DNA of 52,126 nucleotides from positions 1 through 52,126 of the forward strand of contig JAGLZG010000057.1 of NCBI GenBank assembly GCA_023131705.1, written 5' to 3'. The notes under the pieces are model-generated. The model had not been told where the DNA came from and did not search any database. It worked only from the letters and a program-made list of their open reading frames with translations. This document shows positions 1-41,494 of this stretch, piece by piece. Numbering within the stretch: the first letter of the stretch is position 1; each line of letters begins with the position of its first letter. The translations under genes and the position numbers were made by a program. The stretch comes from Nanobdellota archaeon (GTDB taxonomy: Archaea; Nanobdellota; Nanobdellia; Woesearchaeales; B3-WOES).

Positions 1-12
1 TGATATTGTTAT

Positions 13-869: not shown

Positions 870-938
870 AAAATGTCAGAAATCTTCGATTTCTGATCAT
901 GATCAAGAACTTATGGTTCTTGACAAGGCACAATTGCC
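870..938 (+). repeat. Multi-hairpin palindromic element, copy upstream of ugd
   Basis: Hairpin TCAGAAATC-ttc-GATTTCTGA (876-896); 12-bp palindrome TGATCATGATCA (894-905); hairpin CAAGAAC-ttatg-GTTCTTG (904-922); GGCA-caat-TGCC (927-938). Positions 870-896 match 17936-17962 at 23 of 27 positions, differing only in the loop. Confidence 0.45.
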
Positions 939-2426: not shown

Positions 2427-3167
<741 letters not shown>

Positions 3168-3240
3168 ACCCAATAACAATAGTTTATAAATAAAAATTGA
3201 AAAACTTTATATATTTTGACTATACTCTAAAAAACATAAA

Positions 3241-4590: not shown

Positions 4591-6657
4591 ATGAGCATAA
4601 TAACTGTAATATTATTTTTTGTATTAAGTTGGGGTTTAGGATATATCATAACAAGATATGTCAAAAATTCTGATAATTTCTTAGAACGCAATCTAATGCG
4701 TATTGGATTTGGCATTGCTTTGTTTGCATTATTAAATATTATGTTGGGCTTATTACATATGCCCATAGACTGGCGAATCATACTTATGGTTGTCATCTTA
4801 CCCTTAGCATATTTTGCATATAAAGATATAAAAACAAAAAAGTTCTTTACACCAAAACTTAAACTTAAAAAATCAGATATTTATATTCTGATTATTCTGT
4901 TATTTTTTGTATTTACACTCTTTATGTATACAAAAGGCTCATTTAGTTATCCTTGGTTAGAGGATGGTGACCCATGGATACATGCAATCGGTGTGAAATA
5001 TATAAGCATTGAAAAAACCCTTCTTGAACCCGAACCATATGAAAGAATTCTGCAATATACAGATCCTTATCCGCCAGCATATGAATCTATTTTTGGAGTT
5101 TTATTTCAAGTCAGCAGAACAGATTTAATATGGCATATGAAATTTTTTAATAGCCTGATAATATCTTTAGGCATAATATTTTTTTATTTTTTTGCAAAGA
5201 AGTTTGTGAAGAACAATAAAAAGGCTTTATTTGCAACATTTATTCTTACAATAATACCTTGTTATATGAGCCATTTTATCTGGGCCCATTCTTTAGTCAT
5301 AATGCTTATTTTTCCAACATTATATGCTTTTGAGTGCATAAAGGAAGATAAAAGATGGAAATGGATAGCCTCAATAATGGTTGGTGCAATGCTTGTAACA
5401 CAACCAAGCCAGGTCATGAAATTTGGGGTTATTTTATTTGTTTATCTTCTTATTAATTCAATAATTAACAAGAAGATATGGTGGAGTGGATTTTTATCTG
5501 GTTTTTATGGGATTTTTATCTCGTTTTTATGGTGGATTCCAACTTTTATTAGGAGGGGCATACTTACATCTATAAAAATTGAACATCATGGACTTGGCAG
5601 AGCTATTGAAAGTCTGCCTAAGAAATGGTATGAATTTAAAGTTGTAGGTACTGCAGACAGGGTTTATAATTTTAAGGATTTTTTTATAGCAAAAGGACAG
5701 AACATGATTAATAATCCGATTGGGGTTGGCAAGGTACTAATCATACTTATTATATTAACCTTTATTTTTATGATATATCACCAGTTTAAGATTACATTGA
5801 ATAATAGAAAAGAGCATAAAAATCTGTCAATAGTATTATTTTCTCTACAAGGACTATCATTATTGATGCTGCTTTTTTCCTTTTTTTCACCAGTGAACTT
5901 ATTTATGGAATTAAAGGTTGGGCTAGTACATCAAGTTATTTTAACAATTGTTTCTATACTTCTTATTGCTATAAGTTATATTATATTGATAATGAATAAA
6001 TTAGAACACGATAAAAATATGTGGGTTCCTATAACATTAATAATATTAGCATTTACTTTTTTTGGCATTCATGGAGCTTCACTGCCAATACAACTATTCG
6101 CATTCAGATTTTGGATGCTGTTTGCAATATTTTTTAGCCTGATAGTGGCTGAGGGATTGTGGTTAATAATAAACACATTTAGAAATTATAAAACTGCTGT
6201 GAATATTTTTATTTTAATCTTAATTGTAGGATTATTGTTAACATCAGCAAAACAGAAATATGAGCTAAATACAGCGCAATGGGGAACAACTGGCTCTCTT
6301 ATGAAATACGGCCAGCTAAATTCATGGGTTTGGTTTGATGAAAATATCCCTGATAATTCAAATGTTTATTATTCATGCAAATCAAGATGGGGAGATTTTG
6401 CAATAATTGCTTATGATAAATGGAGCTGTTATTGGTGCAAGGATATAAGAGAATCAAAAAAATATATGTTGAATCAATCTTCTGAAAAGATATATAATTG
6501 GCTTAAACAAAAGGATTATGAATATATTGTGATAGATGGGAATTGTATAGGCGATTTTGGGGAGAACTTTACTAATGAAAAAATAAGAGAGATGTCTGCT
6601 TCAAATCTATTTATACCAGTTCATCAAGGGCAGGGCATGGTAATCTTTAGAATATAG
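4591..6657 (+). CDS. Large polytopic membrane protein, GT-C-like (GtrC-position glycosyltransferase candidate)
   Basis: 688 aa with more than 10 predicted hydrophobic helices, an acidic first loop (WLEDGDPWIH) and a soluble Cys/Trp-rich C-terminal domain. The function is inferred from position next to GtrA/GtrB-like genes. Confidence 0.45.
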   Translation: MSIITVILFFVLSWGLGYIITRYVKNSDNFLERNLMRIGFGIALFALLNIMLGLLHMPIDWRIILMVVILPLAYFAYKDIKTKKFFTPKLKLKKSDIYILIILLFFVFTLFMYTKGSFSYPWLEDGDPWIHAIGVKYISIEKTLLEPEPYERILQYTDPYPPAYESIFGVLFQVSRTDLIWHMKFFNSLIISLGIIFFYFFAKKFVKNNKKALFATFILTIIPCYMSHFIWAHSLVIMLIFPTLYAFECIKEDKRWKWIASIMVGAMLVTQPSQVMKFGVILFVYLLINSIINKKIWWSGFLSGFYGIFISFLWWIPTFIRRGILTSIKIEHHGLGRAIESLPKKWYEFKVVGTADRVYNFKDFFIAKGQNMINNPIGVGKVLIILIILTFIFMIYHQFKITLNNRKEHKNLSIVLFSLQGLSLLMLLFSFFSPVNLFMELKVGLVHQVILTIVSILLIAISYIILIMNKLEHDKNMWVPITLIILAFTFFGIHGASLPIQLFAFRFWMLFAIFFSLIVAEGLWLIINTFRNYKTAVNIFILILIVGLLLTSAKQKYELNTAQWGTTGSLMKYGQLNSWVWFDENIPDNSNVYYSCKSRWGDFAIIAYDKWSCYWCKDIRESKKYMLNQSSEKIYNWLKQKDYEYIVIDGNCIGDFGENFTNEKIREMSASNLFIPVHQGQGMVIFRI

Positions 6658-11301: not shown

Positions 11302-11328
11302 TTTTTAATACTTAAAAATCTTTGATTT

Positions 11329-13077
11329 TTAATACTTTCTTTTAAGCATTTTTTCACTTGGGTTAAACCCTATTTTTCCATCCTCTGTTTGATACCATTC
11401 ACCATCAACTTCATAAACAATCCATGAATAACCTATATAATCAATAGGTTTAAATTGTTTTAGCCAATAAAAGCAATTAGGCATTTGAAAATTCATAAAT
11501 TCAACATTCATCACAACCTTTCCTATAAATCCATAACAAGGAGGAACTAAATCTATATCTGGGTGTTTTTCAAAATACCATTTAACTAATAAATCATCTT
11601 GATCATAGTCTATGTTTGAATCTTTGAAATGTGTATGCCCCATTTCCGGACCTCCTGCAATTTCATTGAAATAAGCTGTATGATGTGGAAAGATAGTAAT
11701 TACGCTTATTAATTGCCAACCCAGTAATAAAAAGATAATTATAGGTATAATAAACTTTTTATTTAATTTTATATTTATAAAATTAGAGCCTATTATAAAC
11801 ATAATGGGAAATAGCGGAGCTATGTGTCTTCCACCTATATTCATTTTTAATGTTAGACTTGTAAATATAAATATAAAAAGGAATATAAACAATAAATAAA
11901 GTGTTGAAAATTTCAGTTTAAGCATTTTAAAAAAGATAAATGGCAATAGTATAGCAACCACAAAAAATATCAGTTCTGGAATAGTATTTTTATAAAGCAT
12001 AGAATAAAAATAAAAAGATCTAAAACCAGTAGAAGATCCCTTTCCATTAAGCCAGGAAGCATGAGGCCCTAGTTCTGCATTTGCAGCAGCCTTTGTTGCA
12101 TCTATAGTTGCTATATACTTATAAGGAACAGGCAAGGGAATTTTATTTATAACAGGCATTTTTTCTAAATTTCTGAATGTGTTTGAGTAAGTGGGATATC
12201 TGTGGTTTTCTAATGTTTGGAACATATCATGACATAAGAATAAAGTGTTTAAAACAAAAAGAGCTATAATCATAATAATAAAAAAATGCTTTATCTTCTC
12301 TTTGATATTAATTTTTATTTTCCACCCAAATATTATGAAAATCAAAGCAAACATTATAACGCAATAAGCAGCAGTTATCTTTGTCGCTAATGCAATACCA
12401 AGAGTAACACCAGTTATTATACTATTTTTAAGATTAGATTCTTTCATAAACTTCCATAACCTATATAACGCAAATGTAACAACCAAGGCCAACATTAAAT
12501 CACTTGTTATTAATCTACTTAAAGATATCATCCAAGGTGAAAAAGAATACAAAAACAAAGCTAACAATCCACTTTTTAAGCCATAAATCTCTCTTGACCA
12601 TTTAAAAACTAAATAACCTAAAAGACAGCCAAACAAAGACAAAGCAAAAACATCCCATAATATGAACCTTCTTGGTATAAAAGGCAATTTGGAATTTTCA
12701 GTTACTGGATCTCGTCTGTATTGCTCTCTAAGGATTTTTATTTGGTTATCTGTTAATATGCCCCATTTATAAAAACTAACCCATTCTCCTGTGGAAGCAT
12801 ATTTTTCAATAAATTCTGTCCTGTTTCTTCCAAAATCTGCCATAAACACCAAGGGAAGATTGTGCAGCATACCTAATGGAAATATATTTATCTCTTCAAA
12901 ATCATCTTCTCCTATCAAAAACCCATGCTTTAGATATAAATATCCCCCAAGTATATTTTTTCCACAAGTATCTCTATTGTAGGACTTATATCTCATACTC
13001 CAGTTTACCTGGATTAAAAAAAGCAAAAGCAAAATAACTACAATATACTTGTAATGTTTCTTTAATTCAATTTTCAT
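11329..13077 (-). CDS. Polytopic membrane glycosyltransferase, ArnT/PMT (GT39/GT83)-like
   Basis: 582 aa with an N-terminal anchor, an acidic loop (GEDDFEE), about 11 helices and a soluble C-terminal domain. This architecture is typical of polyprenyl-phosphate-sugar-dependent GT-C enzymes. Confidence 0.5.
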   Translation of the reverse strand: MKIELKKHYKYIVVILLLLFLIQVNWSMRYKSYNRDTCGKNILGGYLYLKHGFLIGEDDFEEINIFPLGMLHNLPLVFMADFGRNRTEFIEKYASTGEWVSFYKWGILTDNQIKILREQYRRDPVTENSKLPFIPRRFILWDVFALSLFGCLLGYLVFKWSREIYGLKSGLLALFLYSFSPWMISLSRLITSDLMLALVVTFALYRLWKFMKESNLKNSIITGVTLGIALATKITAAYCVIMFALIFIIFGWKIKINIKEKIKHFFIIMIIALFVLNTLFLCHDMFQTLENHRYPTYSNTFRNLEKMPVINKIPLPVPYKYIATIDATKAAANAELGPHASWLNGKGSSTGFRSFYFYSMLYKNTIPELIFFVVAILLPFIFFKMLKLKFSTLYLLFIFLFIFIFTSLTLKMNIGGRHIAPLFPIMFIIGSNFINIKLNKKFIIPIIIFLLLGWQLISVITIFPHHTAYFNEIAGGPEMGHTHFKDSNIDYDQDDLLVKWYFEKHPDIDLVPPCYGFIGKVVMNVEFMNFQMPNCFYWLKQFKPIDYIGYSWIVYEVDGEWYQTEDGKIGFNPSEKMLKRKY

Positions 13078-17570: not shown

Positions 17571-20072
17571 ATGTTAAAAAAATTAATAAAATGGCCTCAT
17601 TTTTATTATGTTCTTTTTATAGTTATTCTTGCTCTTTTGTTAAGTGGCCCTTTACTTAATTTAAATAATTCTAAAAGGAACGGAGACTGGAGAAATTCTG
17701 ATACTCCTGGCTATCATTTTTTAAAGCAGTATGTTATTGAAGATAAAAGCTGGCCATTGTGGGATCATATGACTTTTAGCGGCAGGCCTTTATTTAGTTT
17801 TGGACTGCCTTTGCAGTATCCTGTAGCAATAATTTTATCATTATTCCTGCATCCATATGCAACACTAAATCTAATGATGATATTACATCTACTTTTAGCT
17901 GGGTTAGGAATGTATTTTCTTGCTTATGAAATCCTAAAATGTCAGAAATCGAAAATTTCTGAGCACACGAAAAAATCGAAGATTTTTTGTGCCCCAGAAA
18001 CGCAAAGCGTTTCTAAGGATGCTCAAAAACCGCTTGAACAATCTACATCAAGCAATACGCTACAGGTCTCTGATTGGCGGTTTTCGACAAATAAAAAATC
18101 TGCTTTGATTTCATCTGTTATTTATTCTTTATGCCCTTACCTTTTAATTAGTAGTTTAAATCATCCCTTCTGGGTTTATGGTTTATCTTATATTCCTCTA
18201 GAATTATTTTTAGCTATAAAATCATTTAAGAGCAAGCTCCATTTTATCAGATATTCTGTAATTCTAGGATTAGTTTTTGCATTACATTTTCTAAGTGGAG
18301 GTATTTTACAATGGTATTATGCAGTTGGTTTTGTTTCATTTTATTTGTTTTTTAAGATATTCGGAAAAAACTGGCAAAGCAGACTAATAAAATCCTCTTT
18401 GATTTTAATAATATTCCTCGCTCTTACATTTTCTTTGTCTGCTGTAAGGTTTTTGCCAGGAAATGAATGGACATCATTTACAAATAGGGGTGTTGGTTTG
18501 CCTATGGAAGAAATAATGAGGGTAGGGCACTTGGAATGGAATAATTTTATTGATACTTTTGTTTATTCTCTTCATCATGATTCCAAAGCTGGTAGAAGTA
18601 GATGTGGCCAAATTGGTTTAGTTGGATTAGGCCTTATGGTATTTGGAATTTATTCTTATTTTAAGAACAAGGATTATAAGATAAGAAAAAAAGATATGAT
18701 GTTGTTCTTAATAATAACAATGGTTTTGGTTTCTATTTTTGCATCAGGAATATTTTTAAAATATATTTACAATTTCCCAGGAATAAAATCTCAAAGAGGC
18801 TTAGACAGGTCTTTGATTATTTATGTTGTATGCGCTGCTTTAATGGCAGGATTTGGAATGAATTATTTATTTGAAAAATTAAAAACAAAAAATTATTCTC
18901 TAAAGAAAATGAATGTTATTTTTTTAATTGTAATTGTTTTGGTTGCCGGAAATCTTTTATTCATAGACCAAGAATCACTTTCTAATTTTAGAAGTGGATT
19001 TGAACATTATTCTATAACTGAGAACAATCCTGTTTTTTTGAAAATAGCTGAAGACAAAGATATCTTTAGATTTCATGTTATAGAAGTAGCAGGAGTTGAT
19101 TGGAATAATTTTTTAGGGTCTAGTATACCATTGAACTTAGAATCAATTTATGGTATGTATGGTCCCCTCTGGGATAGTAGATACTTCCATACATTTTTGG
19201 CTTCAACTTTTAGATCGCCTGCAAAATTGTGGGGGATGCTAAATGTTAAGTATATAATTTCTGCAAATGAGATTAATAATACAGATTATGAATTTGTGGA
19301 AAGGTTTGATGATGTTCCTTTAGATACAATAAGCAAAAAGAAATATAATAATACTGCTTACTTGTATAAAAATAAAAAATTCCTACCAAGAGCATTTATT
19401 TCTCCAACACCTATTTTGATTGTTGGTCAAGAAGATAATGTTAAACAGTTGATGTATGGATTATTGATTAATCCTAACTTTGATCCAAGCAAAACAATAA
19501 TAGTGCAAGGAAAAGAAACAATAGACAGCTATGGGATAAATGAGTTAAGAAGATATGATGCTGTTTTCTTAACACAAGGATCTATCACACAGAATTCCCA
19601 ATTTATCTTAGAATCATACAAAAATAAAGGAGGGGCAATTTTTCCAGATGTTTTAGATGGAAAAAATATGTTGTCAAATGAAGAGATTGATGAATTATTT
19701 TTAAAATTAAATAAAGTAAATAAAACTATGAAAAAGATTAAAATCATTAGTTATTATGATAAAACACCAAATTTCATGAGAATCAGTTTGGATAATAAAG
19801 AGAATTCATTTTTGTTTGTCAGTGAAAAATATACATTGTATCCTGGATGGACTGCAAAGATTGATGGAAAAGAAACAGAAATTTTATTATCTAACGGTGT
19901 TTTAAGCGCTGTTTATATCCCAATAGACTCTGAATACATAACCTTTAAATATTATCCAAGGAGCTTTAGAAAAGGATTAATAATAACTATTCTTTCATCA
20001 ATTATCATTCTTTTTTATTTTGGATACAAAACAATAAAATATCTTAAAAAAAAGAAACAAATTATCTCTTAG
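17571..20072 (+). CDS. YfhO-family polytopic membrane glycosyltransferase
   Basis: 833 aa with many helices and the C-terminal family signature YPGWTAKIDGKETEILLSNGVLSAVYIPIDSEYITFKYYP plus a final anchor helix. It carries an atypical hydrophilic insert of about 50 aa. Confidence 0.7.
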   Translation: MLKKLIKWPHFYYVLFIVILALLLSGPLLNLNNSKRNGDWRNSDTPGYHFLKQYVIEDKSWPLWDHMTFSGRPLFSFGLPLQYPVAIILSLFLHPYATLNLMMILHLLLAGLGMYFLAYEILKCQKSKISEHTKKSKIFCAPETQSVSKDAQKPLEQSTSSNTLQVSDWRFSTNKKSALISSVIYSLCPYLLISSLNHPFWVYGLSYIPLELFLAIKSFKSKLHFIRYSVILGLVFALHFLSGGILQWYYAVGFVSFYLFFKIFGKNWQSRLIKSSLILIIFLALTFSLSAVRFLPGNEWTSFTNRGVGLPMEEIMRVGHLEWNNFIDTFVYSLHHDSKAGRSRCGQIGLVGLGLMVFGIYSYFKNKDYKIRKKDMMLFLIITMVLVSIFASGIFLKYIYNFPGIKSQRGLDRSLIIYVVCAALMAGFGMNYLFEKLKTKNYSLKKMNVIFLIVIVLVAGNLLFIDQESLSNFRSGFEHYSITENNPVFLKIAEDKDIFRFHVIEVAGVDWNNFLGSSIPLNLESIYGMYGPLWDSRYFHTFLASTFRSPAKLWGMLNVKYIISANEINNTDYEFVERFDDVPLDTISKKKYNNTAYLYKNKKFLPRAFISPTPILIVGQEDNVKQLMYGLLINPNFDPSKTIIVQGKETIDSYGINELRRYDAVFLTQGSITQNSQFILESYKNKGGAIFPDVLDGKNMLSNEEIDELFLKLNKVNKTMKKIKIISYYDKTPNFMRISLDNKENSFLFVSEKYTLYPGWTAKIDGKETEILLSNGVLSAVYIPIDSEYITFKYYPRSFRKGLIITILSSIIILFYFGYKTIKYLKKKKQIIS
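17936..18090 (+). repeat. Multi-hairpin palindromic element inserted in frame within the yfhO-like CDS
   Basis: Hairpins TCAGAAAT-cgaaa-ATTTCTGA (17942-17962), AAAAAATC-gaa-GATTTTTT with outer GCAC/GTGC (17963-17992) and AGAAACGC-aaa-GCGTTTCT (17997-18015). There is a long-range pairing AAAACCGC (18026-18033) / GCGGTTTT (18077-18084). The stretch is visibly G+C-richer than its flanks and shares 23/27 nt with 870-896. Confidence 0.5.
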
Positions 20073-32679: not shown

Positions 32680-33615
32680 ATGAAAATATCAGTTACTGGC
32701 GGAAAAGGATTTTTAGGGAAGAATGTAGTGAATTTACTAAAACAAAAAGGTTATGAAGTTTTTTCAATGGATAAAACAGATAGCATAGATATTTTAGATT
32801 ATGATTTTTTTAAAGTTCAGCTAGAAAAAATAAAACCAGATATAGTGGTTCATTGTGCAGCCCATGTAGGGGGAATTGCTTACAATAGACTTCATCCTGT
32901 TGAGGTCTTTGAAGATAATGTTAAAATAGGTCTTAATATAGTTAGAGCTTGTAATGAGGTTGGGATCAATAATTTTATTAATATAATGCCTAACTGCACA
33001 TATCCTGGTAATATGGAAGAATATGAAGAAAGCAAATGGTGGGATGGACCAATGCATGATTCTGTTTTAACTTATGGTCTTCCAAGAAAGATGGTATGGG
33101 GGGCTTGTTTTGCATATTGCAAGAAAAATAAAGACTTCAAACCAATTCACCTCATATTTCCTAATATGTATGGTCCAAATGACCATTTTGAAATTATAAG
33201 GTCTCATGCATTAGGCGCATTAATATCAAAAATAATTGATGCAAAAGAAAAAAATAAAAAAATAGTTGAGATATGGGGTACAGGCAATCCTGTAAGAGAG
33301 TGGCTTTTTGTTAAAGATGGTGCTGAATCAATCTTAAAGGCAATTGAAAACATTGATAAATTTGATCCAAACGAGATAATGAACATAGGTGTAAGAAAAG
33401 GAATTTCAATAAAAGACATGGCCGAGATTATTAAAGAAATTGTTGGATGGAAAGGTAAGTTTGTTTATCAAACAGAAAAACCCGATGGAGCAATGAAAAA
33501 AATTCTTGTTACTGAGAAGATGAAGCAGAAATTGAATTGGGAGCCTTCTACTGAGTTAAAAGAAGGCATTAAACTTACAGTTGACTGGTATTATAAGAAT
33601 ATAATAAAGAAATGA
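32680..33615 (+). CDS. GDP-L-fucose synthase-like NAD(P)-dependent epimerase/reductase
   Basis: ISVTGGKGFLG Rossmann motif plus Fcl-like blocks NMYGPNDHF and IWGTGNPVREWLFVKD. The usual YxxxK reads YGLPRK, so the exact specificity is uncertain. Confidence 0.65.
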   Translation: MKISVTGGKGFLGKNVVNLLKQKGYEVFSMDKTDSIDILDYDFFKVQLEKIKPDIVVHCAAHVGGIAYNRLHPVEVFEDNVKIGLNIVRACNEVGINNFINIMPNCTYPGNMEEYEESKWWDGPMHDSVLTYGLPRKMVWGACFAYCKKNKDFKPIHLIFPNMYGPNDHFEIIRSHALGALISKIIDAKEKNKKIVEIWGTGNPVREWLFVKDGAESILKAIENIDKFDPNEIMNIGVRKGISIKDMAEIIKEIVGWKGKFVYQTEKPDGAMKKILVTEKMKQKLNWEPSTELKEGIKLTVDWYYKNIIKK

Positions 33616-33616
33616 T

Positions 33617-33762
33617 TATGTCGGAGTCGAGCTTAAAACTATTGGACTTTAGTCCGTAGATAAAGGCTCGACTCTGAGCATCCTAAAAATCAGTCTATAA
33701 ATGCAAGCGTCCATTCAAACTCCTGCCTAAAGGCAGGAGTAGGATGCTTGCGACCGATTTTT
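33617..33762 (+). repeat. G+C-rich double long-hairpin element between the fcl-like gene and wzx (structured RNA, terminator or MITE-like repeat)
   Basis: Hairpin A pairs CGGAGTCGAGC (33622-33632) with GCTCGACTCTG (33666-33676) and has a nested GGACT/AGTCC. Hairpin B pairs AAAAATCAGTC (33685-33695) with GACCGATTTTT (33752-33762), TGCAAGCGTCC (33702-33712) with GGATGCTTGCG (33742-33752), and ACTCCTGCC-taaa-GGCAGGAGT (33719-33740). An alternative pairing is AGCATCCT (33677-33684) / AGGATGCT (33741-33748). Confidence 0.5.
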
Positions 33763-33841
33763 ATGATATTAAAATTTATTAGTTATGAGACACAGCAACA
33801 AATTCATAAACCTTTTAAAACCCACTCAATCTGTTCTTTAA

Positions 33842-38424: not shown

Positions 38425-39342
38425 ATGAAACCTGTAAAAGAATGTATACCATGTCAAAGAAAGAGAGCTATGCTTATTACTAAAAATCTTAGTGAAGAGA
38501 AAAAGAAGGAATTGACCAAAAGGATAAATGTTCTTTTCTCTAATCTGGATATGAATAGATGCACAATAGATATAGCTAATGAGAGGAATAGGATAATCAA
38601 AGAAATTGCAGGTAAAGATGCATTAATGGATGATTTAAGGGAAGATAGTATGAAGGCTGCTGAAAAGATTTCTCCTAATCTAGAACAAGATTTAGAAAAA
38701 ATAAAAGATGAAGAGGAGAGATTTTGTAAGGCACTTAGAATAGCTTTGGCAGGAAATGTAATTGAATTTGGGACTACTAATCATGTTGTTAAAATAGGGG
38801 AAATAGAAAAAAGAGTACATGAAACAATTAAGCAGGAACCAGCAATAGATGACAGCAGAATGGTTTATGAAATTGTTCAAGCTTACAACCATTCAAACAG
38901 AATATTATATCTTGTTGATAATGCTGCTGAGATAGCATTTGACAGGTTGTTCATAAAGGAATTAGTAAAACATGCTATTGTTGTTATTGCAGCTTTATCA
39001 GAGCCGGATCAGGATGATGCTTGTGTAGAGAATCTAAAACGTTTTGGTATAGACAAGATACCTAATTGTGAAATTATAACAAAAGGGAAGTATATAGGGG
39101 CATATTTTCCAAACACAACAAAGCAATTTAAGGTAGAGTTTGAAAAAGCTGATTTAATTATATCAAAAGGCATGGGGAATTATGAGAGTCTAAGTGAATA
39201 CTCAGATAAGATAATAAACAAAGTTGTATTTATGTTAAAATTAAAATGTGGACCTGTTGCAGATAGCTTTAGTGATTTCTTCAATATAGGAAACAAACTA
39301 GAAGTTGGGGCAAATGTAATCAAGTTTGCTTCTAAAAATTAA
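38425..39342 (+). CDS. DUF89 (ARMT1-like) metal-dependent phosphatase family protein
   Basis: Family motifs VDNAAEIAFD (DNxxE...D) and KGMGNYESL. Confidence 0.7.
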   Translation: MKPVKECIPCQRKRAMLITKNLSEEKKKELTKRINVLFSNLDMNRCTIDIANERNRIIKEIAGKDALMDDLREDSMKAAEKISPNLEQDLEKIKDEEERFCKALRIALAGNVIEFGTTNHVVKIGEIEKRVHETIKQEPAIDDSRMVYEIVQAYNHSNRILYLVDNAAEIAFDRLFIKELVKHAIVVIAALSEPDQDDACVENLKRFGIDKIPNCEIITKGKYIGAYFPNTTKQFKVEFEKADLIISKGMGNYESLSEYSDKIINKVVFMLKLKCGPVADSFSDFFNIGNKLEVGANVIKFASKN

Positions 39343-41494
39343 TGAAATGAATAATATTAAAAAAACAAAAAATTATTGTATGATAGGTCATGTATCAATT
39401 TTAACTTCTAAAACTAAAGAAGGTAATAAAGGTAAATCCAATTCTGATATAATTAAAGAAAGAAAACCCTCTCAAAGAATAATGTCCTTGTTGACTAGTT
39501 TTGAGCAAAAAGATTATAAAAAAAACTATGTTTTCAAAAATTATTCAAAGACAATAAAAAACAAGAAACCAATAGAGCAATTTAAGTATTATCTGGAAAA
39601 CAATCCAGTTGTAATAAATGACAATGAACTTCTTGTAGGAGGTATCTTCCTAAGGTTTAAAGATATTAAGATGGAATTAAAGGCAGGAAATGCCTTTAAA
39701 AGGGTAATTGGAGATTCATATTTTTCAACAGGAGTTAAAGGGTATAGTATAAGAACTCCTCCAGGATATAAAAATATAATAAAATTTGGTTTTGCAGGAC
39801 TAAGAGACAAATCATTAAGATTATTAAAAAAAGAGAAAGATCCTGAAAAGATAAAGTTTTTAGAGAACAGCGCTAAAGCCAATGATTTAGCTTGTAAGTT
39901 TATAGCAAAATATTCTGAAGAAGCCTTGAGGAAATCTAAAACTGAAAAAAATCTTTCTAGAAAAAGAGAGTTATTGAAGATAGCAAAATGCTGTCATGAT
40001 ATTTCTGTTAGAGAACCACGTCATTTTTATGAAGGGGTCCAGATTATCTGGTTTACTAAGGTCTTTGGTGCTGTTGGTGGCTTAGGAAGATTTGACCAAT
40101 ATCTTTGGAAATTATTTAAAAAAGACCTCAAGGAAGGAAGATTGAATTATGAGGGGGCATTAGACCTTATTGAAGATTTTTGGATAAAATGCAATTTATG
40201 GAATCAGGGATGGACTGCACCAAATGATTCATGGCAGCACATTACATTATCAGGATTAAAACCTAATGGGGGAGATGGTACAAATGATTTAACTTACTTA
40301 TGTTTACAGGCGCAATATGATCTAAAATTACCAGAACCTAAAGTTAGTGTGAGGTTTTCAGGTAAACATCCTGAAGGGTTAGTTGCTGAAACCTGTAAGG
40401 TTCTTAGATTGGGATTAGGAATGCCTTCTATCTATAATGATAAAGTTGTTATTCCTGGTCTTAAAAGATTAGGGATAAGTTTGAAAGATGCAAGAGATTA
40501 TACAAATAATGGATGTTCAGAGATAATTTTAGATGGTAATTCAACAACTTGTTTTGCTCAAATAAATCTTTTGGATATATTGAATAAAACAATAAGAAAA
40601 AAAGCATTTTCTAATTTTAAAGATTTGTTAGATACATATAAAGTTGAGATTGAAAAAGAGATACAAATTCCAGAAGTAAATTCTGTTACACACCCTCTTT
40701 TAGCTTCTACAATGGATGATTGCCTTTTGAAAGGCTCTGGCAATTGCGCAAGATACATTCTTAAAGGAAGCCTTGCTAATGCAACACCAAATGCAGTGGA
40801 TGGTTTAGCAGCAATAAATAAACTGGTTTTTGAAGATAAAAAATTATCATTGAACAAATTTATTAAAGCATTAGATTCTAATTTCAAGGATAATTCTATC
40901 AGGCACTTAATTATTAATGTTCCTAAATATGGAAATGATGAATCTTATGCAGATTTAATAGCAAAGGATATTGCAGAATATTTTTGTGATGCTGTTTTAA
41001 GAAAATATCCTAATAAAAAAGGAGATAATATCAAGGTTTCTCCAGGATTATTGGCTTTTGATGTACAATATCTTAGACATATGGATGCATCTCCAGATGG
41101 AAGAAAGAAAGGAGAGCATGTTGCTAATGCTATAAGCCCAGCTATTGGGAGAGATTTAAAAGGACCTACAGCAGTAATCAATTCTGCTAGGAAAATAGAT
41201 TTTAGAAAAGCAAGCTATGGCTCTGTTCTTGACATGGTTTTTTATTCAGGTTTATTTTCTCAACAAACAGAAGACAGATTTGTTGATTTTATTAGAACTT
41301 TTTTAAAGTATCCATCTACAGCAACATTACATGTCAATTTTCTTGACATAGAACTTTTGAAAGCTGTTCAAAAAGATCCTAAAAACCCAGCGTATAAAAA
41401 TATAATTGTAAGAGTATGGGGATTCTCAGCTTATTTTGTTGATTTGGACAAGGATTTACAAGATCATATTATCAAAAGGACACAATTTATGTAA
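39326..41494 (+). CDS. Glycyl radical enzyme, eliminase/dehydratase-type Cys loop
   Basis: C-terminal glycyl radical motif VRVWGFSAYFVDL and Cys loop NNGCSEIIL (GCxE, as in the diol/choline/hydroxyproline eliminases, not the CC of PFL). The start codon is uncertain (39326, 39347 or further in). Confidence 0.85.
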   Translation: MLLKINEMNNIKKTKNYCMIGHVSILTSKTKEGNKGKSNSDIIKERKPSQRIMSLLTSFEQKDYKKNYVFKNYSKTIKNKKPIEQFKYYLENNPVVINDNELLVGGIFLRFKDIKMELKAGNAFKRVIGDSYFSTGVKGYSIRTPPGYKNIIKFGFAGLRDKSLRLLKKEKDPEKIKFLENSAKANDLACKFIAKYSEEALRKSKTEKNLSRKRELLKIAKCCHDISVREPRHFYEGVQIIWFTKVFGAVGGLGRFDQYLWKLFKKDLKEGRLNYEGALDLIEDFWIKCNLWNQGWTAPNDSWQHITLSGLKPNGGDGTNDLTYLCLQAQYDLKLPEPKVSVRFSGKHPEGLVAETCKVLRLGLGMPSIYNDKVVIPGLKRLGISLKDARDYTNNGCSEIILDGNSTTCFAQINLLDILNKTIRKKAFSNFKDLLDTYKVEIEKEIQIPEVNSVTHPLLASTMDDCLLKGSGNCARYILKGSLANATPNAVDGLAAINKLVFEDKKLSLNKFIKALDSNFKDNSIRHLIINVPKYGNDESYADLIAKDIAEYFCDAVLRKYPNKKGDNIKVSPGLLAFDVQYLRHMDASPDGRKKGEHVANAISPAIGRDLKGPTAVINSARKIDFRKASYGSVLDMVFYSGLFSQQTEDRFVDFIRTFLKYPSTATLHVNFLDIELLKAVQKDPKNPAYKNIIVRVWGFSAYFVDLDKDLQDHIIKRTQFM

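What the first reader, a model, noticed from the sequence alone, without database searches (positions are those of the whole stretch)
17936..18090. Palindromic multi-hairpin element of about 150 bp inserted in frame into the yfhO-like coding sequence
The stretch encoding ...KCQKSKISEHTKKSKIFCAPETQSVSKDAQKPLEQSTSSNTLQVSDWRFSTNKK... is visibly G+C-richer than the gene around it. It is hydrophilic in an otherwise hydrophobic protein, and it sits where YfhO proteins normally have only a short loop between two helices (LGMYFLAYEILK / SALISSVIYSLCP). At DNA level it consists of three consecutive perfect 8-bp hairpins with 3-5-nt loops plus a long-range 8-bp pairing. Its first 27 nt recur upstream of ugd (870-896). 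Its layout (hairpin, CTGAGCA, inner hairpins, AGGATGCT, A-run...CCG/CGG...T-run) parallels the intergenic element at 33617-33762. This looks like the Rickettsia palindromic element phenomenon, in which a selfish or structured repeat is tolerated in frame inside a protein loop. I am not aware of this being described for CPR/DPANN-type genomes.
Basis: partly seen in the sequence, partly recalled or inferred. Interest (0 to 1): 0.65.

Follow-up and report, generated by a model that had tools for sequence, protein, structure and literature searches.

The report
Hairpin mobile element inside yfhO gene
A 150-base, hairpin-rich mobile DNA element, from a repeat family found across many DPANN (Woese-/Pace-/Nanoarchaeota) genomes, sits in frame inside a membrane glycosyltransferase gene and most likely adds a floppy 50-residue loop, much as the Rickettsia palindromic elements do in bacteria.

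Summary
Window 17940-18089 is an exact 150-nt, stop-free, G+C-richer, multi-hairpin insert in a YfhO-like ORF. It is absent from all 12 orthologs and from a closely related cold-seep allele.

It is a member of a large, previously unlisted repeat family. The core is a 52-nt double hairpin, TG-TCAGAAAT..ATTTCTGA-GCATGC-TCARAAAC..GTTTYTGA-CA. The family is abundant in Woese-/Pace-/Nanoarchaeota MAGs and metagenomes. The window holds two more copies, at 874-925 and 33619-33767.

- **Polarity and target:** copies lie directly 3' of a TTRAWA motif that the empty yfhO sites already carry.
- **No target-site duplication:** none is visible at the yfhO junctions.
- **Arrangement:** copies form tandems and nest in hairpin loops.

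This is the signature of single-strand, IS200/IS605 (PATE)- or REP-like transposition. No cognate transposase was found.

Copies are depleted in genes (5% against 45% for controls). Every intragenic copy is 3n long and stop-free, including one in ribosomal protein uL3. Others sit in RNase P RNA and a tRNA intron.

The RPE analogy is supported. Translation and the mobilising enzyme remain inferred. I rate it a new member of a known kind.

The parts
17571..20072 (+). Host gene: YfhO-family (GT-C-like) membrane protein, 833 aa including the insert
   Evidence: Pfam PF09586, E 3e-13. Orthologs are 772-794 aa. AF2 model: pLDDT 80, pTM 0.80.
17934..17939 (+). Target (TAM-like) motif CTAAAA directly 5' of the element. 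It pre-exists in empty sites.
   Evidence: Empty sites read L001 TTAAAA|AAT, L002 TTAAAA|AAC and X4 contig TTGAAA|AAT. The family-wide left-flank consensus is TT-R-A-W-A.
17940..18089 (+). The inserted element: 150 nt, termini TGTC...GACA, no target-site duplication, read in frame as residues 124-173 (CQKSK...WRFST). Boundaries are ambiguous by 1 nt because of flanking A.
17940..17965 (+). Left half (LE): TG + hairpin TCAGAAAT-CGAAA-ATTTCTGA + GCA
   Evidence: Hairpin I8. Matches model R1 at 34 bits, E 1.6e-7. Identical in type to the LE of more than 100 family members.
17966..18019 (+). Internal module of two hairpins (17970-17988 and 17996-18014) between the halves. The same arrangement occurs in L063, L072 and L075.
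18020..18089 (+). Right half (RE): TGC + stem TCAAAAACCGC/GCGGTTTTCGA + CA, with a 43-nt loop module homologous to the big-loop right halves of L053, L063 and L204
   Evidence: Inverted repeat I3. Sequence comparison.
874..925 (+).
   Evidence: Model R1 at 71.1 bits, E 4.8e-18. Sequence.
33619..33767 (+). Sister sub-family copy, intergenic. It has a left half with an expanded loop (TG-TCGGAGTCGAGC...GCTCGACTCTGA-GCA), then a TAAAAATC...GATTTTTA hairpin and TGAT. The right end is approximate.
   Evidence: ssDNA fold z = -8.4. Not detected by the minimal model R1.
11306..11334 (-). Weak single-hairpin match (TTAAAAATC-TTT-GATTTTTAA), possibly a decayed remnant or an unrelated hairpin
   Evidence: Model R1 at 18.3 bits, E 0.005

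Best explanation
The 150-nt stretch is a non-autonomous, hairpin-built mobile DNA element.

**Family.** It belongs to a large, polar repeat family of DPANN archaea. The family core is a 52-nt double hairpin, TG-[TCAGAAAT..ATTTCTGA]-GCATGC-[TCARAAAC..GTTTYTGA]-CA. Longer members carry extra hairpin modules in the loops or between the two halves.

**The insertion event.** In the lineage of this window, one expanded copy inserted precisely 3' of a pre-existing TTRAAA motif. The site lies in the part of yfhO that codes for the short loop between two transmembrane helices. No target-site duplication was made (shown).

**Why it is tolerated.** The copy is 3n long and stop-free in the host frame, so it is most likely read through as a hydrophilic, disordered 50-residue loop (inferred).

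**Mobilisation.** Several features together point to single-strand, hairpin-guided 'peel-and-paste' transposition of the IS200/IS605 (PATE) or REP/RAYT kind, by a trans-acting HUH enzyme that was not identified (inferred). The features are a one-sided target motif, no duplication, hairpins 2 nt from each end, head-to-tail tandems, and nesting in hairpin loops.

**Selection.** Selection then keeps only those intragenic copies that preserve the reading frame (shown statistically).

**How sure.** The overall figure of 0.8 is for the core claim, a mobile-element insertion from a repeat family. My sub-estimates are about 0.9 for that insertion, about 0.7 for in-frame translation and about 0.45 for the HUH-type mechanism.
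For: **Insertion**
- Clean 50-column gap in 12 orthologs.
- DNA empty sites TTAAAA|AAT and TTAAAA|AAC in L001 and L002.
- Empty allele TTGAAA|AAT in a cold-seep run.
- The insert allele is present in an independent Logan assembly, 100% identical over 13,176 nt. It is also in a second sample, as a contig spanning the left junction.

**Family**
- More than 116 genome loci and more than 120 metagenome loci contain exact seeds.
- Model R1 finds many further copies: up to 5 in 8 kb, and copies at contig ends.
- Stems covary: 98.4% paired, 30 double-change cells against 9.7 in shuffles, 0 of 500 shuffles as high.

**Polarity and target**
- In 85 non-redundant copies, position -3 is A in 80/85 and -1 is A in 72/85. 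Positions -6 and -5 are T in 59 and 55 of 85 (1.32 and 0.99 bits at -3 and -1).
- The right flank carries 0.33 bits or less.
- Tandems abut as ...TTTTTGACA|TGTCAG....
- A copy is nested in a hairpin loop.

**Coding behaviour**
- 7 of 135 bounded copies lie inside ORFs, against 198 of 436 shifted control segments.
- All 7, plus the window copy, are 3n long and stop-free. Only 45% of all copies are 3n (P about 0.002).
- An 18-aa copy sits in frame in uL3 in several lineages, with a compensatory stem change and a 33-nt in-frame partial deletion.

**Protein context**
- In the AF2 model, residues 126-165 have pLDDT below 50, between helices 95-123 and 160-186.
- The peptide has no genuine homolog.

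**Mechanistic reference:** IS200/IS605 elements insert downstream of a TAM, without duplication, using LE/RE hairpins. PATEs are their gene-less derivatives (PMC10055086).
Against: - **No cognate transposase.** No gene recurs next to copies. The only Y1 tnpA seen (L096) has unrelated end hairpins and is itself disrupted by a copy.
- **Geometry differs from IS608.** The hairpins sit 2 nt from the ends. In IS608 the left cleavage site is about 19 nt from the hairpin (my own knowledge, not checked here).
- **Unusual conservation.** Phylum-wide sequence conservation of the left hairpin is odd for a selfish MITE and could mean a host function.
- **No expression data.** No RNA or protein data exist for this locus, so translation is inferred.
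- **Boundary uncertainty.** The element boundary is ambiguous by 1 nt.
- **Taxonomy not proven.** The window's own taxonomy is inferred only from the element's distribution and weak archaeal-type family hits.
Confidence: 0.8

Rival explanations
1. A classical TIR-type MITE, moved by a DDE transposase through cut-and-paste. The two halves would be its terminal inverted repeats with TG...CA tips.
For: The halves are inverted repeats of each other, and the termini read TG...CA. An rve-domain ORF lies near one uL3 copy in L123.
Against: No target-site duplication appears at the yfhO junctions with known empty sites. Flank conservation is strictly one-sided. Length variation sits inside the hairpin loops while the central GCATGC junction stays intact, which is not what internal-deletion MITEs show. 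The rve ORF is not flanked by element ends.
Confidence: 0.08
2. A host-functional structured module that has been copied around the genome. It could be a protein-binding DNA or RNA hairpin pair acting in transcript 3'-end formation, mRNA stability or regulation, as proposed for REP/BIME. The yfhO copy would be a by-product. This reading is compatible with mobility.
For: The left hairpin sequence is conserved across Woese-, Pace- and Nanoarchaeota. Stems covary. Copies persist in uL3 across lineages 65-100% identical, with a compensatory change. Copies lie in RNase P RNA and a tRNA intron.
Against: No Rfam family matches. Positions are not syntenic. Presence/absence polymorphism exists between close strains. 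Contigs break at copies. There is no consistent position relative to genes. Conservation may simply reflect recognition by a conserved transposase.
Confidence: 0.15
3. The insert is removed or skipped at the RNA level, as an archaeal bulge-helix-bulge intron or by ribosomal bypassing. It would then never appear in the protein.
For: The element is hairpin-dense. The same hairpin lies inside a tRNA-Thr intron (L028).
Against: The exon flanks (CCTAAAA / AATAAAAAA) cannot pair to form the outer helix of a BHB motif (sequence). All 8 intragenic copies are 3n long and stop-free, which splicing would not require. Frame-breaking copies whose removal restores an ORF are not enriched: 2 of 135 against 14 of 436 controls. 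A 21-nt remnant left by a 33-nt deletion in uL3 stays in frame.
Confidence: 0.05
4. A lineage-specific native loop of the protein, or an assembly artefact.
For: None beyond the open reading frame.
Against: The insert is absent from orthologs up to 76% identical and from a closely related allele. Its DNA is a nested palindrome belonging to a repeat family. The peptide has no homologs. The same sequence occurs in independent assemblies.
Confidence: 0.02

Closest known systems
Rickettsia palindromic elements (RPE; Ogata et al. 2000, as summarised in PMC10969869)
   Same: Both are roughly 100-150-bp palindromic dispersed repeats that are repeatedly found in frame inside unrelated protein genes. 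They add hydrophilic peptides at positions compatible with the fold. Neither encodes a transposase.
   Different: The host differs: DPANN archaea rather than an alpha-proteobacterial genus. The sequence family is presumably unrelated, though RPE consensus sequences were not compared here. The present family has a 52-nt minimal core, clear polarity, a defined TTRAWA target and modular hairpin-in-hairpin growth. Only about 5% of its copies are intragenic, whereas a large share of RPE copies are in ORFs.
PATEs: gene-less derivatives of IS200/IS605 elements (Haloquadratum, PMC3119063; Geobacillus, PMC10055086)
   Same: Both abut a short T-rich motif on the left side only and make no target-site duplication. 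Both have hairpins at both ends and are small and non-coding. The right end resembles the target, and tandems occur.
   Different: No autonomous parent or cognate TnpA was found. The hairpins lie 2 nt from the tips. The two halves are near-perfect inverted copies of each other. The family spans a whole phylum-level group rather than one species.
REP / BIME / REPIN elements mobilised by RAYT (TnpA-REP) in bacteria
   Same: The unit is a short hairpin preceded by a conserved tetranucleotide. Units pair in inverted orientation and build mosaic clusters. The mobilising enzyme is of the HUH type and acts in trans.
   Different: REPs are extragenic and bacterial, and each family is tied to a single RAYT gene flanked by REPs. 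Here copies also sit in ORFs and RNA genes, and no RAYT-like gene was seen.

Membership tests
Rickettsia palindromic elements (RPE) | Dispersed palindromic repeat of about 100-150 bp without coding capacity of its own | tested here: met
Rickettsia palindromic elements (RPE) | Recurrent in-frame insertion into unrelated ORFs | tested here: met
   yfhO, uL3, further ORFs
Rickettsia palindromic elements (RPE) | Sequence homology to RPE-1..10 consensus; host genus Rickettsia | not tested
   No RPE consensus was available to compare. The hosts here are DPANN archaea, so I treat it as an analogue, not a member.
IS200/IS605-derived PATE | Insertion without target-site duplication | tested here: met
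   Filled and empty yfhO sites
IS200/IS605-derived PATE | Conserved short motif (TAM) abutting the left end only, and pre-existing in the target | tested here: met
   TT-R-A-W-A in 85 copies, with an uninformative right flank. The motif is present in the empty sites.
IS200/IS605-derived PATE | Structured hairpins at both ends | tested here: met
IS200/IS605-derived PATE | Autonomous relative with the same ends encoding a Y1 HUH TnpA | tested here: inconclusive
   None was found in about 1.6 Mb of fetched loci. The single tnpA seen (L096) has different end hairpins. Whole genomes were not searched.
IS200/IS605-derived PATE | Base-pairing between a guide next to the hairpin foot and the TAM/TEM | not tested
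   Only 2 nt separate the tips from the hairpins. No analysis was made.
TIR-type MITE (DDE transposase) | Terminal inverted repeats | tested here: met
   The halves are inverted copies.
TIR-type MITE (DDE transposase) | Target-site duplication flanking the element | tested here: not met
REP/BIME-RAYT | Hairpin units with a conserved 5' tetranucleotide, in inverted doublets and mosaic clusters | tested here: met
REP/BIME-RAYT | Strictly extragenic; an associated RAYT gene flanked by REPs | tested here: not met
   Copies occur in ORFs and RNA genes. No RAYT-like gene was seen.
Archaeal bulge-helix-bulge intron | BHB motif formed across the two junctions; no constraint on length or frame | tested here: not met
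   The A-rich flanks cannot pair. All intragenic copies are 3n long and stop-free.
Any curated RNA family (Rfam 15) | Covariance-model match | tested here: not met

The most novel reading that the evidence does not exclude
DPANN archaea carry a phylum-wide family of hairpin transposons with no linked transposase. The elements are moved by a still unknown, possibly host-encoded or TnpB/TnpA-related, single-strand enzyme that reads a TTRAWA motif. The family would be old enough and tolerated enough to have become a permanent part of essential molecules: an 18-residue segment of ribosomal protein uL3, an expansion of an RNase P RNA helix, and tRNA introns. It may have acquired a host function at the DNA or RNA level.
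Probability: 0.25. Interest if true: 0.75.

Novelty: new member of a known kind. Interest (0 to 1): 0.6.

Why it matters
- **Extends a known phenomenon.** Selfish palindromic DNA written into proteins is best known from Rickettsia. This finding extends it to the reduced genomes of DPANN archaea. There it reaches even ribosomal protein uL3 and RNase P RNA.
- **Practical tools.** The work yields a concrete 52-nt consensus, a covariance model and a target motif. These can be used to annotate the repeats. That matters because they break assemblies, inflate 'hypothetical' loops and can mislead alignments and phylogenies of marker proteins.
- **A tractable question.** It poses a clear one: which enzyme moves a TTRAWA-targeting, duplication-free hairpin element in organisms with about 1-Mb genomes?

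Tried and rejected
- **Rfam** at gathering and E-value thresholds, on the window, the element and 21 related loci. The element itself was never matched. The only hits were RNase P RNA, 5S rRNA and tRNAs in related loci.
- **Known small ribozymes**, checked by eye. The hammerhead core needs CUGAnGA and GAAA. Here the sequence is CUGAGCA and GACA, so I rejected it.
- **Box C/D sRNA.** No C box at the 5' end and no D box at the 3' end, so I rejected it.
- **Protein-level homology of the 50-aa insert** against 1.84 billion representatives. The only hit was a spurious tandem-repeat ORF, P0034.
- **Viral contigs (IMG/VR).** No copy of the left half.
- **RNA-seq runs.** None are available.
- **Linked transposase.** All-against-all clustering of ORFs around about 200 copies gave only housekeeping genes, TrmB-like regulators and Fic proteins.
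- **rve ORF near the uL3 copy in L123.** It is not flanked by element ends.
- **Y1 tnpA motif scan of all fetched DNA.** One hit, in L096, which is a different IS disrupted by a copy.
- **PDB alignment of the uL3 protein.** It did not resolve the insert because that region is variable. Close orthologs did resolve it.
- **Taxonomic placement of the window** from its own genes. Inconclusive: it is a glycan-biosynthesis island with only weak archaeal-type hits. Cluster look-up gave no names.
- **Literature searches.** Searches for DPANN MITEs, palindromic repeats and the sequence motifs found no description of this family.
Full report
**1. The observation**

ORF 17571-20072 (+) encodes an 833-aa YfhO-family membrane protein (Pfam PF09586).

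- Three perfect 8-bp hairpins lie at 17942-62, 17970-88 and 17996-18014. A long-range pairing joins 18023-33 to 18077-87.
- The region folds far better than shuffled sequence. As RNA, z = -4.8. As ssDNA, z = -5.1.
- Its G+C is 0.413 against 0.285 for the rest of the gene. No other 150-nt window of the gene reaches this value, and only 0.6% of windows in the 52 kb do.
- Its peptide is hydrophilic: GRAVY -1.0 against +0.2 for the rest of the protein.

**2. It is an insertion, and a recent one**

The 12 best homologs (32-76% identity, 688-794 aa) align on both sides of a clean 50-column gap. That gap fixes the insert at codons 124-173, or 17940-18089, exactly 150 nt.

At DNA level the two closest loci have uninterrupted sites:

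- L001 reads ...GTTTTAAAA|AATGAAAAA...
- L002 reads ...ATATTAAAA|AACAAAAAA...
- The window reads CTAAAA[TGTC...150 nt...GACA]AATAAAAAA.

No target-site duplication is present.

The source is a cold-seep community. An independent Logan assembly carries the same 13,176 nt, insert included. A contig from a second sample spans the left junction. In another study's run, a 151-nt contig matches 17820-17929 (1 mismatch) and 18089-18119 (2 mismatches) and skips the insert. It reads TAT GAG ACA TTG AAA|AAT AAA AAA TCT. A close relative therefore has the empty site. Other contigs of that run are only about 90% identical to the window.

Many other contigs in these runs match element modules at high depth with unrelated flanks. 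Other copies therefore abound in the community.

**3. It belongs to a large family**

They break down as follows:

| Label | Loci |
|---|---|
| Woese-, Pace- or Nanoarchaeota | 59 |
| 'archaeon' | 3 |
| 'uncultured Methanosarcinales' MAGs | 23 |
| Faecousia/Oscillospiraceae repeat that merely shares the hairpin | 19 |
| Other bacterial labels (mostly stray matches; L005 and L118 carry canonical copies) | 15 |

For the one 'Methanosarcinales'-labelled MAG tested (L078), the only named relatives of its uL3 are Woesearchaeota and Nanoarchaeota proteins.

Reading the flanks shows a common 52-54-nt unit: TG-TCAGAAATC-nnn-GATTTCTGA-GCATGC-TCARAAACnn-nnn-nnGTTTYTGA-CA. The unit is a palindrome made of two halves, and each half is itself a hairpin.

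On 23 minimal copies, 98.4% of cells pair. Thirty cells carry changes on both sides, against 9.7 +/- 3.1 in shuffles (0 of 500 shuffles as high). Sliding the partners destroys the pairing.

The covariance model R1 gave these results:

- **In the window:** 874-925 (71 bits), the left part of the yfhO insert (34 bits) and a weak hairpin at 11306-34.
- **In 85 archaeal loci:** 200 strand-matches. Each palindromic copy scores on both strands. Many of these copies were missed by the exact seed. There are up to five in 8 kb (L051).
- **At contig ends:** L001, L060 and L098, as expected of repeats that break assemblies.

The yfhO insert is an expanded member. It has a canonical left half (17940-65), two internal hairpins arranged as in L063, L072 and L075, and a right half whose loop holds a 43-nt module homologous to those of L053, L063 and L204.

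The intergenic element at 33619-~33767 is a sister sub-family. It has a left half with an expanded loop, then GCATCC-TAAAAATC...GATTTTTA-TGAT, as in L015, L084, L103 and L116.

**4. Anatomy that bears on mechanism**

The family is polar. In 85 non-redundant metagenome copies (52-215 nt), the six bases 5' of TGTC read as follows:

| Position | Base | Count of 85 | Information |
|---|---|---|---|
| -6 | T | 59 | 0.48 bits |
| -5 | T | 55 | 0.45 bits |
| -4 | A or G | 72 | 0.41 bits |
| -3 | A | 80 | 1.32 bits |
| -2 | A or T | 75 | 0.28 bits |
| -1 | A | 72 | 0.99 bits |

The ten bases 3' of GACA carry at most 0.33 bits. The smaller genome set shows the same left-flank bias.

This TTRAWA motif is not part of the element. 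The empty yfhO sites already read TTAAAA or TTGAAA at the junction.

Further features:

- The right tip (TTTTTGACA) resembles the target. Head-to-tail tandems ...TTTTTGACA|TGTCAGAAAT... occur in L124, L174 and L230.
- A minimal copy is nested in the loop of an inner hairpin of a long copy, in L135 and L197.
- A conserved long form of about 165 nt exists with unrelated flanks, in L157, L227, L159, L132 and L203.

A one-sided target motif, no duplication, hairpins at both ends, tandems and loop targeting are the hallmarks of HUH single-strand 'peel-and-paste' transposition. That mechanism is described for IS200/IS605 and its gene-less PATE derivatives (PMC10055086; PMC3119063). The architecture also recalls REP/BIME doublets.

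This step is inference, because no cognate enzyme was found:

- No gene family recurs next to copies.
- No copy is in IMG/VR viral contigs.
- The only Y1 tnpA in 1.6 Mb of fetched DNA (L096, a Nanoarchaeota MAG) has different end hairpins. It is itself split after its HUH motif by a frame-shifting 52-nt copy.

**5. Behaviour in genes**

Of 135 copies with clear boundaries, 7 (5%) lie inside ORFs with at least 60 codons on each side. Of segments shifted by 400-700 nt, 198 of 436 (45%) do. Copies are therefore strongly excluded from coding sequence. Some of those 7 ORFs may be spurious; only uL3 was verified by homologs.

All 7, and the window copy, are multiples of three and stop-free. Only 45% of all copies are 3n (P about 0.002). 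Copies whose removal would restore an ORF are not enriched: 2 of 135 against 14 of 436. This argues for read-through and purifying selection, not removal at RNA level.

The best-documented second case is ribosomal protein uL3.

- An 18-residue segment, MSETQ(S/G)VSEHAQKSSISD, is present in P0035, P0043, P0044, P0045 (variant: VSETQGVSEHDQKSKNS, second hairpin decayed) and P0048. These are 65-100% identical to each other.
- It is absent in P0039-42, P0047, P0050, P0051 and P0058.
- It is half-present in P0036, which is 95% identical.
- At DNA level, L078 and L122 hold intact 54-nt copies at the same site.
- L123 has a compensated stem: ACGC/GCGT has become ACAC/GTGT.
- L121 has lost 33 nt between two TCAGAAA repeats, still in frame.

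Other in-frame copies sit in an FtsY-like protein (L119), a pilin-like N-terminus (L020) and several further ORFs. These identities are my reading of the sequences, not tested.

For YfhO itself, AlphaFold2 gives a confident model (pLDDT 80, pTM 0.80). Residues 126-165 fall below 50, between helices 95-123 and 160-186. The insert is a disordered excursion of a short inter-helix loop. The 50-aa peptide has no genuine homolog among 1.84 billion representatives.

**6. Other contexts**

- A 52-nt copy lies within a 90-nt expansion of an apical loop of an archaeal RNase P RNA gene. The gene is at L093 6070-6453 (103 bits) and the copy at 6173-6224.
- The family hairpin lies in the intron of a tRNA-Thr(CGT) gene at L028 5595-5712. 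The tRNA call is; the anticodon and intron position are my reading of the sequence.

Hairpin loops and non-essential RNA segments thus also tolerate, or attract, the element.

**7. Rivals**

- **DDE-type TIR MITE.** Contradicted by the missing duplication and the one-sided flank.
- **BHB intron or ribosomal bypass.** Contradicted by flanks that cannot pair and by the 3n/stop-free rule.
- **Native loop or artefact.** Excluded.
- **Host function of the hairpins.** A regulatory or structural role, as proposed for REP/BIME, cannot be excluded and is compatible with mobility. The phylum-wide conservation of the left hairpin is the main observation that pure selfishness does not explain.

**8. Known relatives and novelty**

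In behaviour this is the RPE phenomenon (PMC10969869). In inferred mechanism it resembles PATE or REP elements.

I do not file it in any of these families, for three reasons. Sequence relation to RPE was not tested and the host differs. The defining transposase of PATE or REP was not found. The defining duplication of TIR-MITEs is absent.

Searches of 8.3 million papers found no description of this family or of in-frame palindromic elements in DPANN. A MITE census only notes that one Woesearchaea genome is MITE-dense (PMC11602168). A 2024 review lists archaeal MITEs only for Sulfolobus, haloarchaea and a few others. Absence from the searchable literature is not proof of novelty.

**9. Not shown**

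- Translation of the insert.
- The side of the membrane it faces.
- The enzyme that moves it.
- Current activity of the family.
- The taxonomy of the window itself. Only weak archaeal-type hits were found.

Noticed in passing
Its left flank is TTAGAAAA|TGTC. Whether it affects that gene's promoter is unknown.
   Followed up: partly
window 33619-33767: A sister sub-family element starts 3 nt after the stop of ORF 32680-33615 and is very strongly structured (ssDNA z = -8.4). It has a left half with an expanded loop, then a TAAAAATC...GATTTTTA hairpin enclosing two inner stems. The minimal model misses it.
   Followed up: partly
L078 616-669; L122 1877-1930; L123 1877-1929; L121 1349-1377: The same element sits in frame at one site of the ribosomal protein uL3 gene in several DPANN lineages, with a patchy distribution. 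It is intact in two, carries a compensatory stem change in one, and is reduced by a 33-nt in-frame deletion in one.
   Followed up: yes
L093 6070-6453 (element at 6173-6224): A 52-nt copy lies inside an archaeal RNase P RNA gene, within a 90-nt expansion of an apical loop (8 nt in the Rfam model).
   Followed up: partly
L028 5595-5712: A tRNA-Thr(CGT) gene has an intron of about 45 nt, apparently at the canonical position. The intron contains the family hairpin TCAGAAATC-TTC-GATTTCTGA in antisense orientation.
   Followed up: partly
L096 about 2560-3200: An IS200/IS605-type Y1 transposase gene in a Nanoarchaeota MAG is split right after its HUH motif (PDHLH|IFVGARP) by a frame-shifting 52-nt copy. 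Its own end hairpins (AGCAATCACCT..., TTACAAAGTAG...) are unrelated to the family, so it is not the obvious mobiliser.
   Followed up: partly
L131, L141, L169, L193, L235: Copies recur in one conserved context, ...C(C/G)CTCAAG|element|CGCCG(C/T)GGGGGCTATTG.... This suggests insertion in an unidentified conserved gene or RNA. Rfam finds nothing there. L040, L054 and L061 share another context (GCTCACT|...|..CTTACAG).
   Followed up: no
L012, L016, L021, L024, L026, L029, L033, L034 and others (Faecousia/Oscillospiraceae MAGs): A different, G+C-rich bacterial repeat (GGGGGC-TGTCAGAAATCnnnGATTTCTGAC-TGGGGG...) contains the same 10-bp hairpin stem. Whether this is coincidence or a shared recognition hairpin is not known.
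   Followed up: no
L100, L107, L113, L091, L081, L039, L087 (Nanoarchaeota and Pacearchaeota MAGs): A larger mosaic repeat starts ATCAAAAAAACAATGTGCCACCACA. It carries the family left hairpin nested inside a long stem (…CCACCACA / TGTGTGG…) and ends near TTGTTTTTAGGATGC. Several copies per genome have unrelated flanks.
   Followed up: partly
L104 3475-3545 (= L217): A 71-nt copy (not 3n) whose removal in silico fuses two ORFs into one of 186 aa. It may be a gene disrupted by the element.
   Followed up: no
L020 263-352; L119 2725-2775; L140; L160; L101: Further in-frame or start-proximal copies. By my reading of the sequences they lie in a pilin-like N-terminus, an FtsY-like N-terminal domain, a methylthiotransferase-like ORF, a serine-acetyltransferase-like ORF and a phosphomannomutase-like ORF. 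With the usual flanking A, the element tip reads ATG TCA GAA (MSE) and could supply a start codon.
   Followed up: partly
window 1-52126: The whole window is a glycan/cell-surface biosynthesis island: glycosyltransferases, DegT aminotransferases, RmlC, FkbH-ACP-PPTase, PMT-like proteins, a pyruvyl transferase, a GT9 protein, and a PFL-like glycyl-radical enzyme at 39326-41494. It has no tRNA or rRNA genes.
   Followed up: partly
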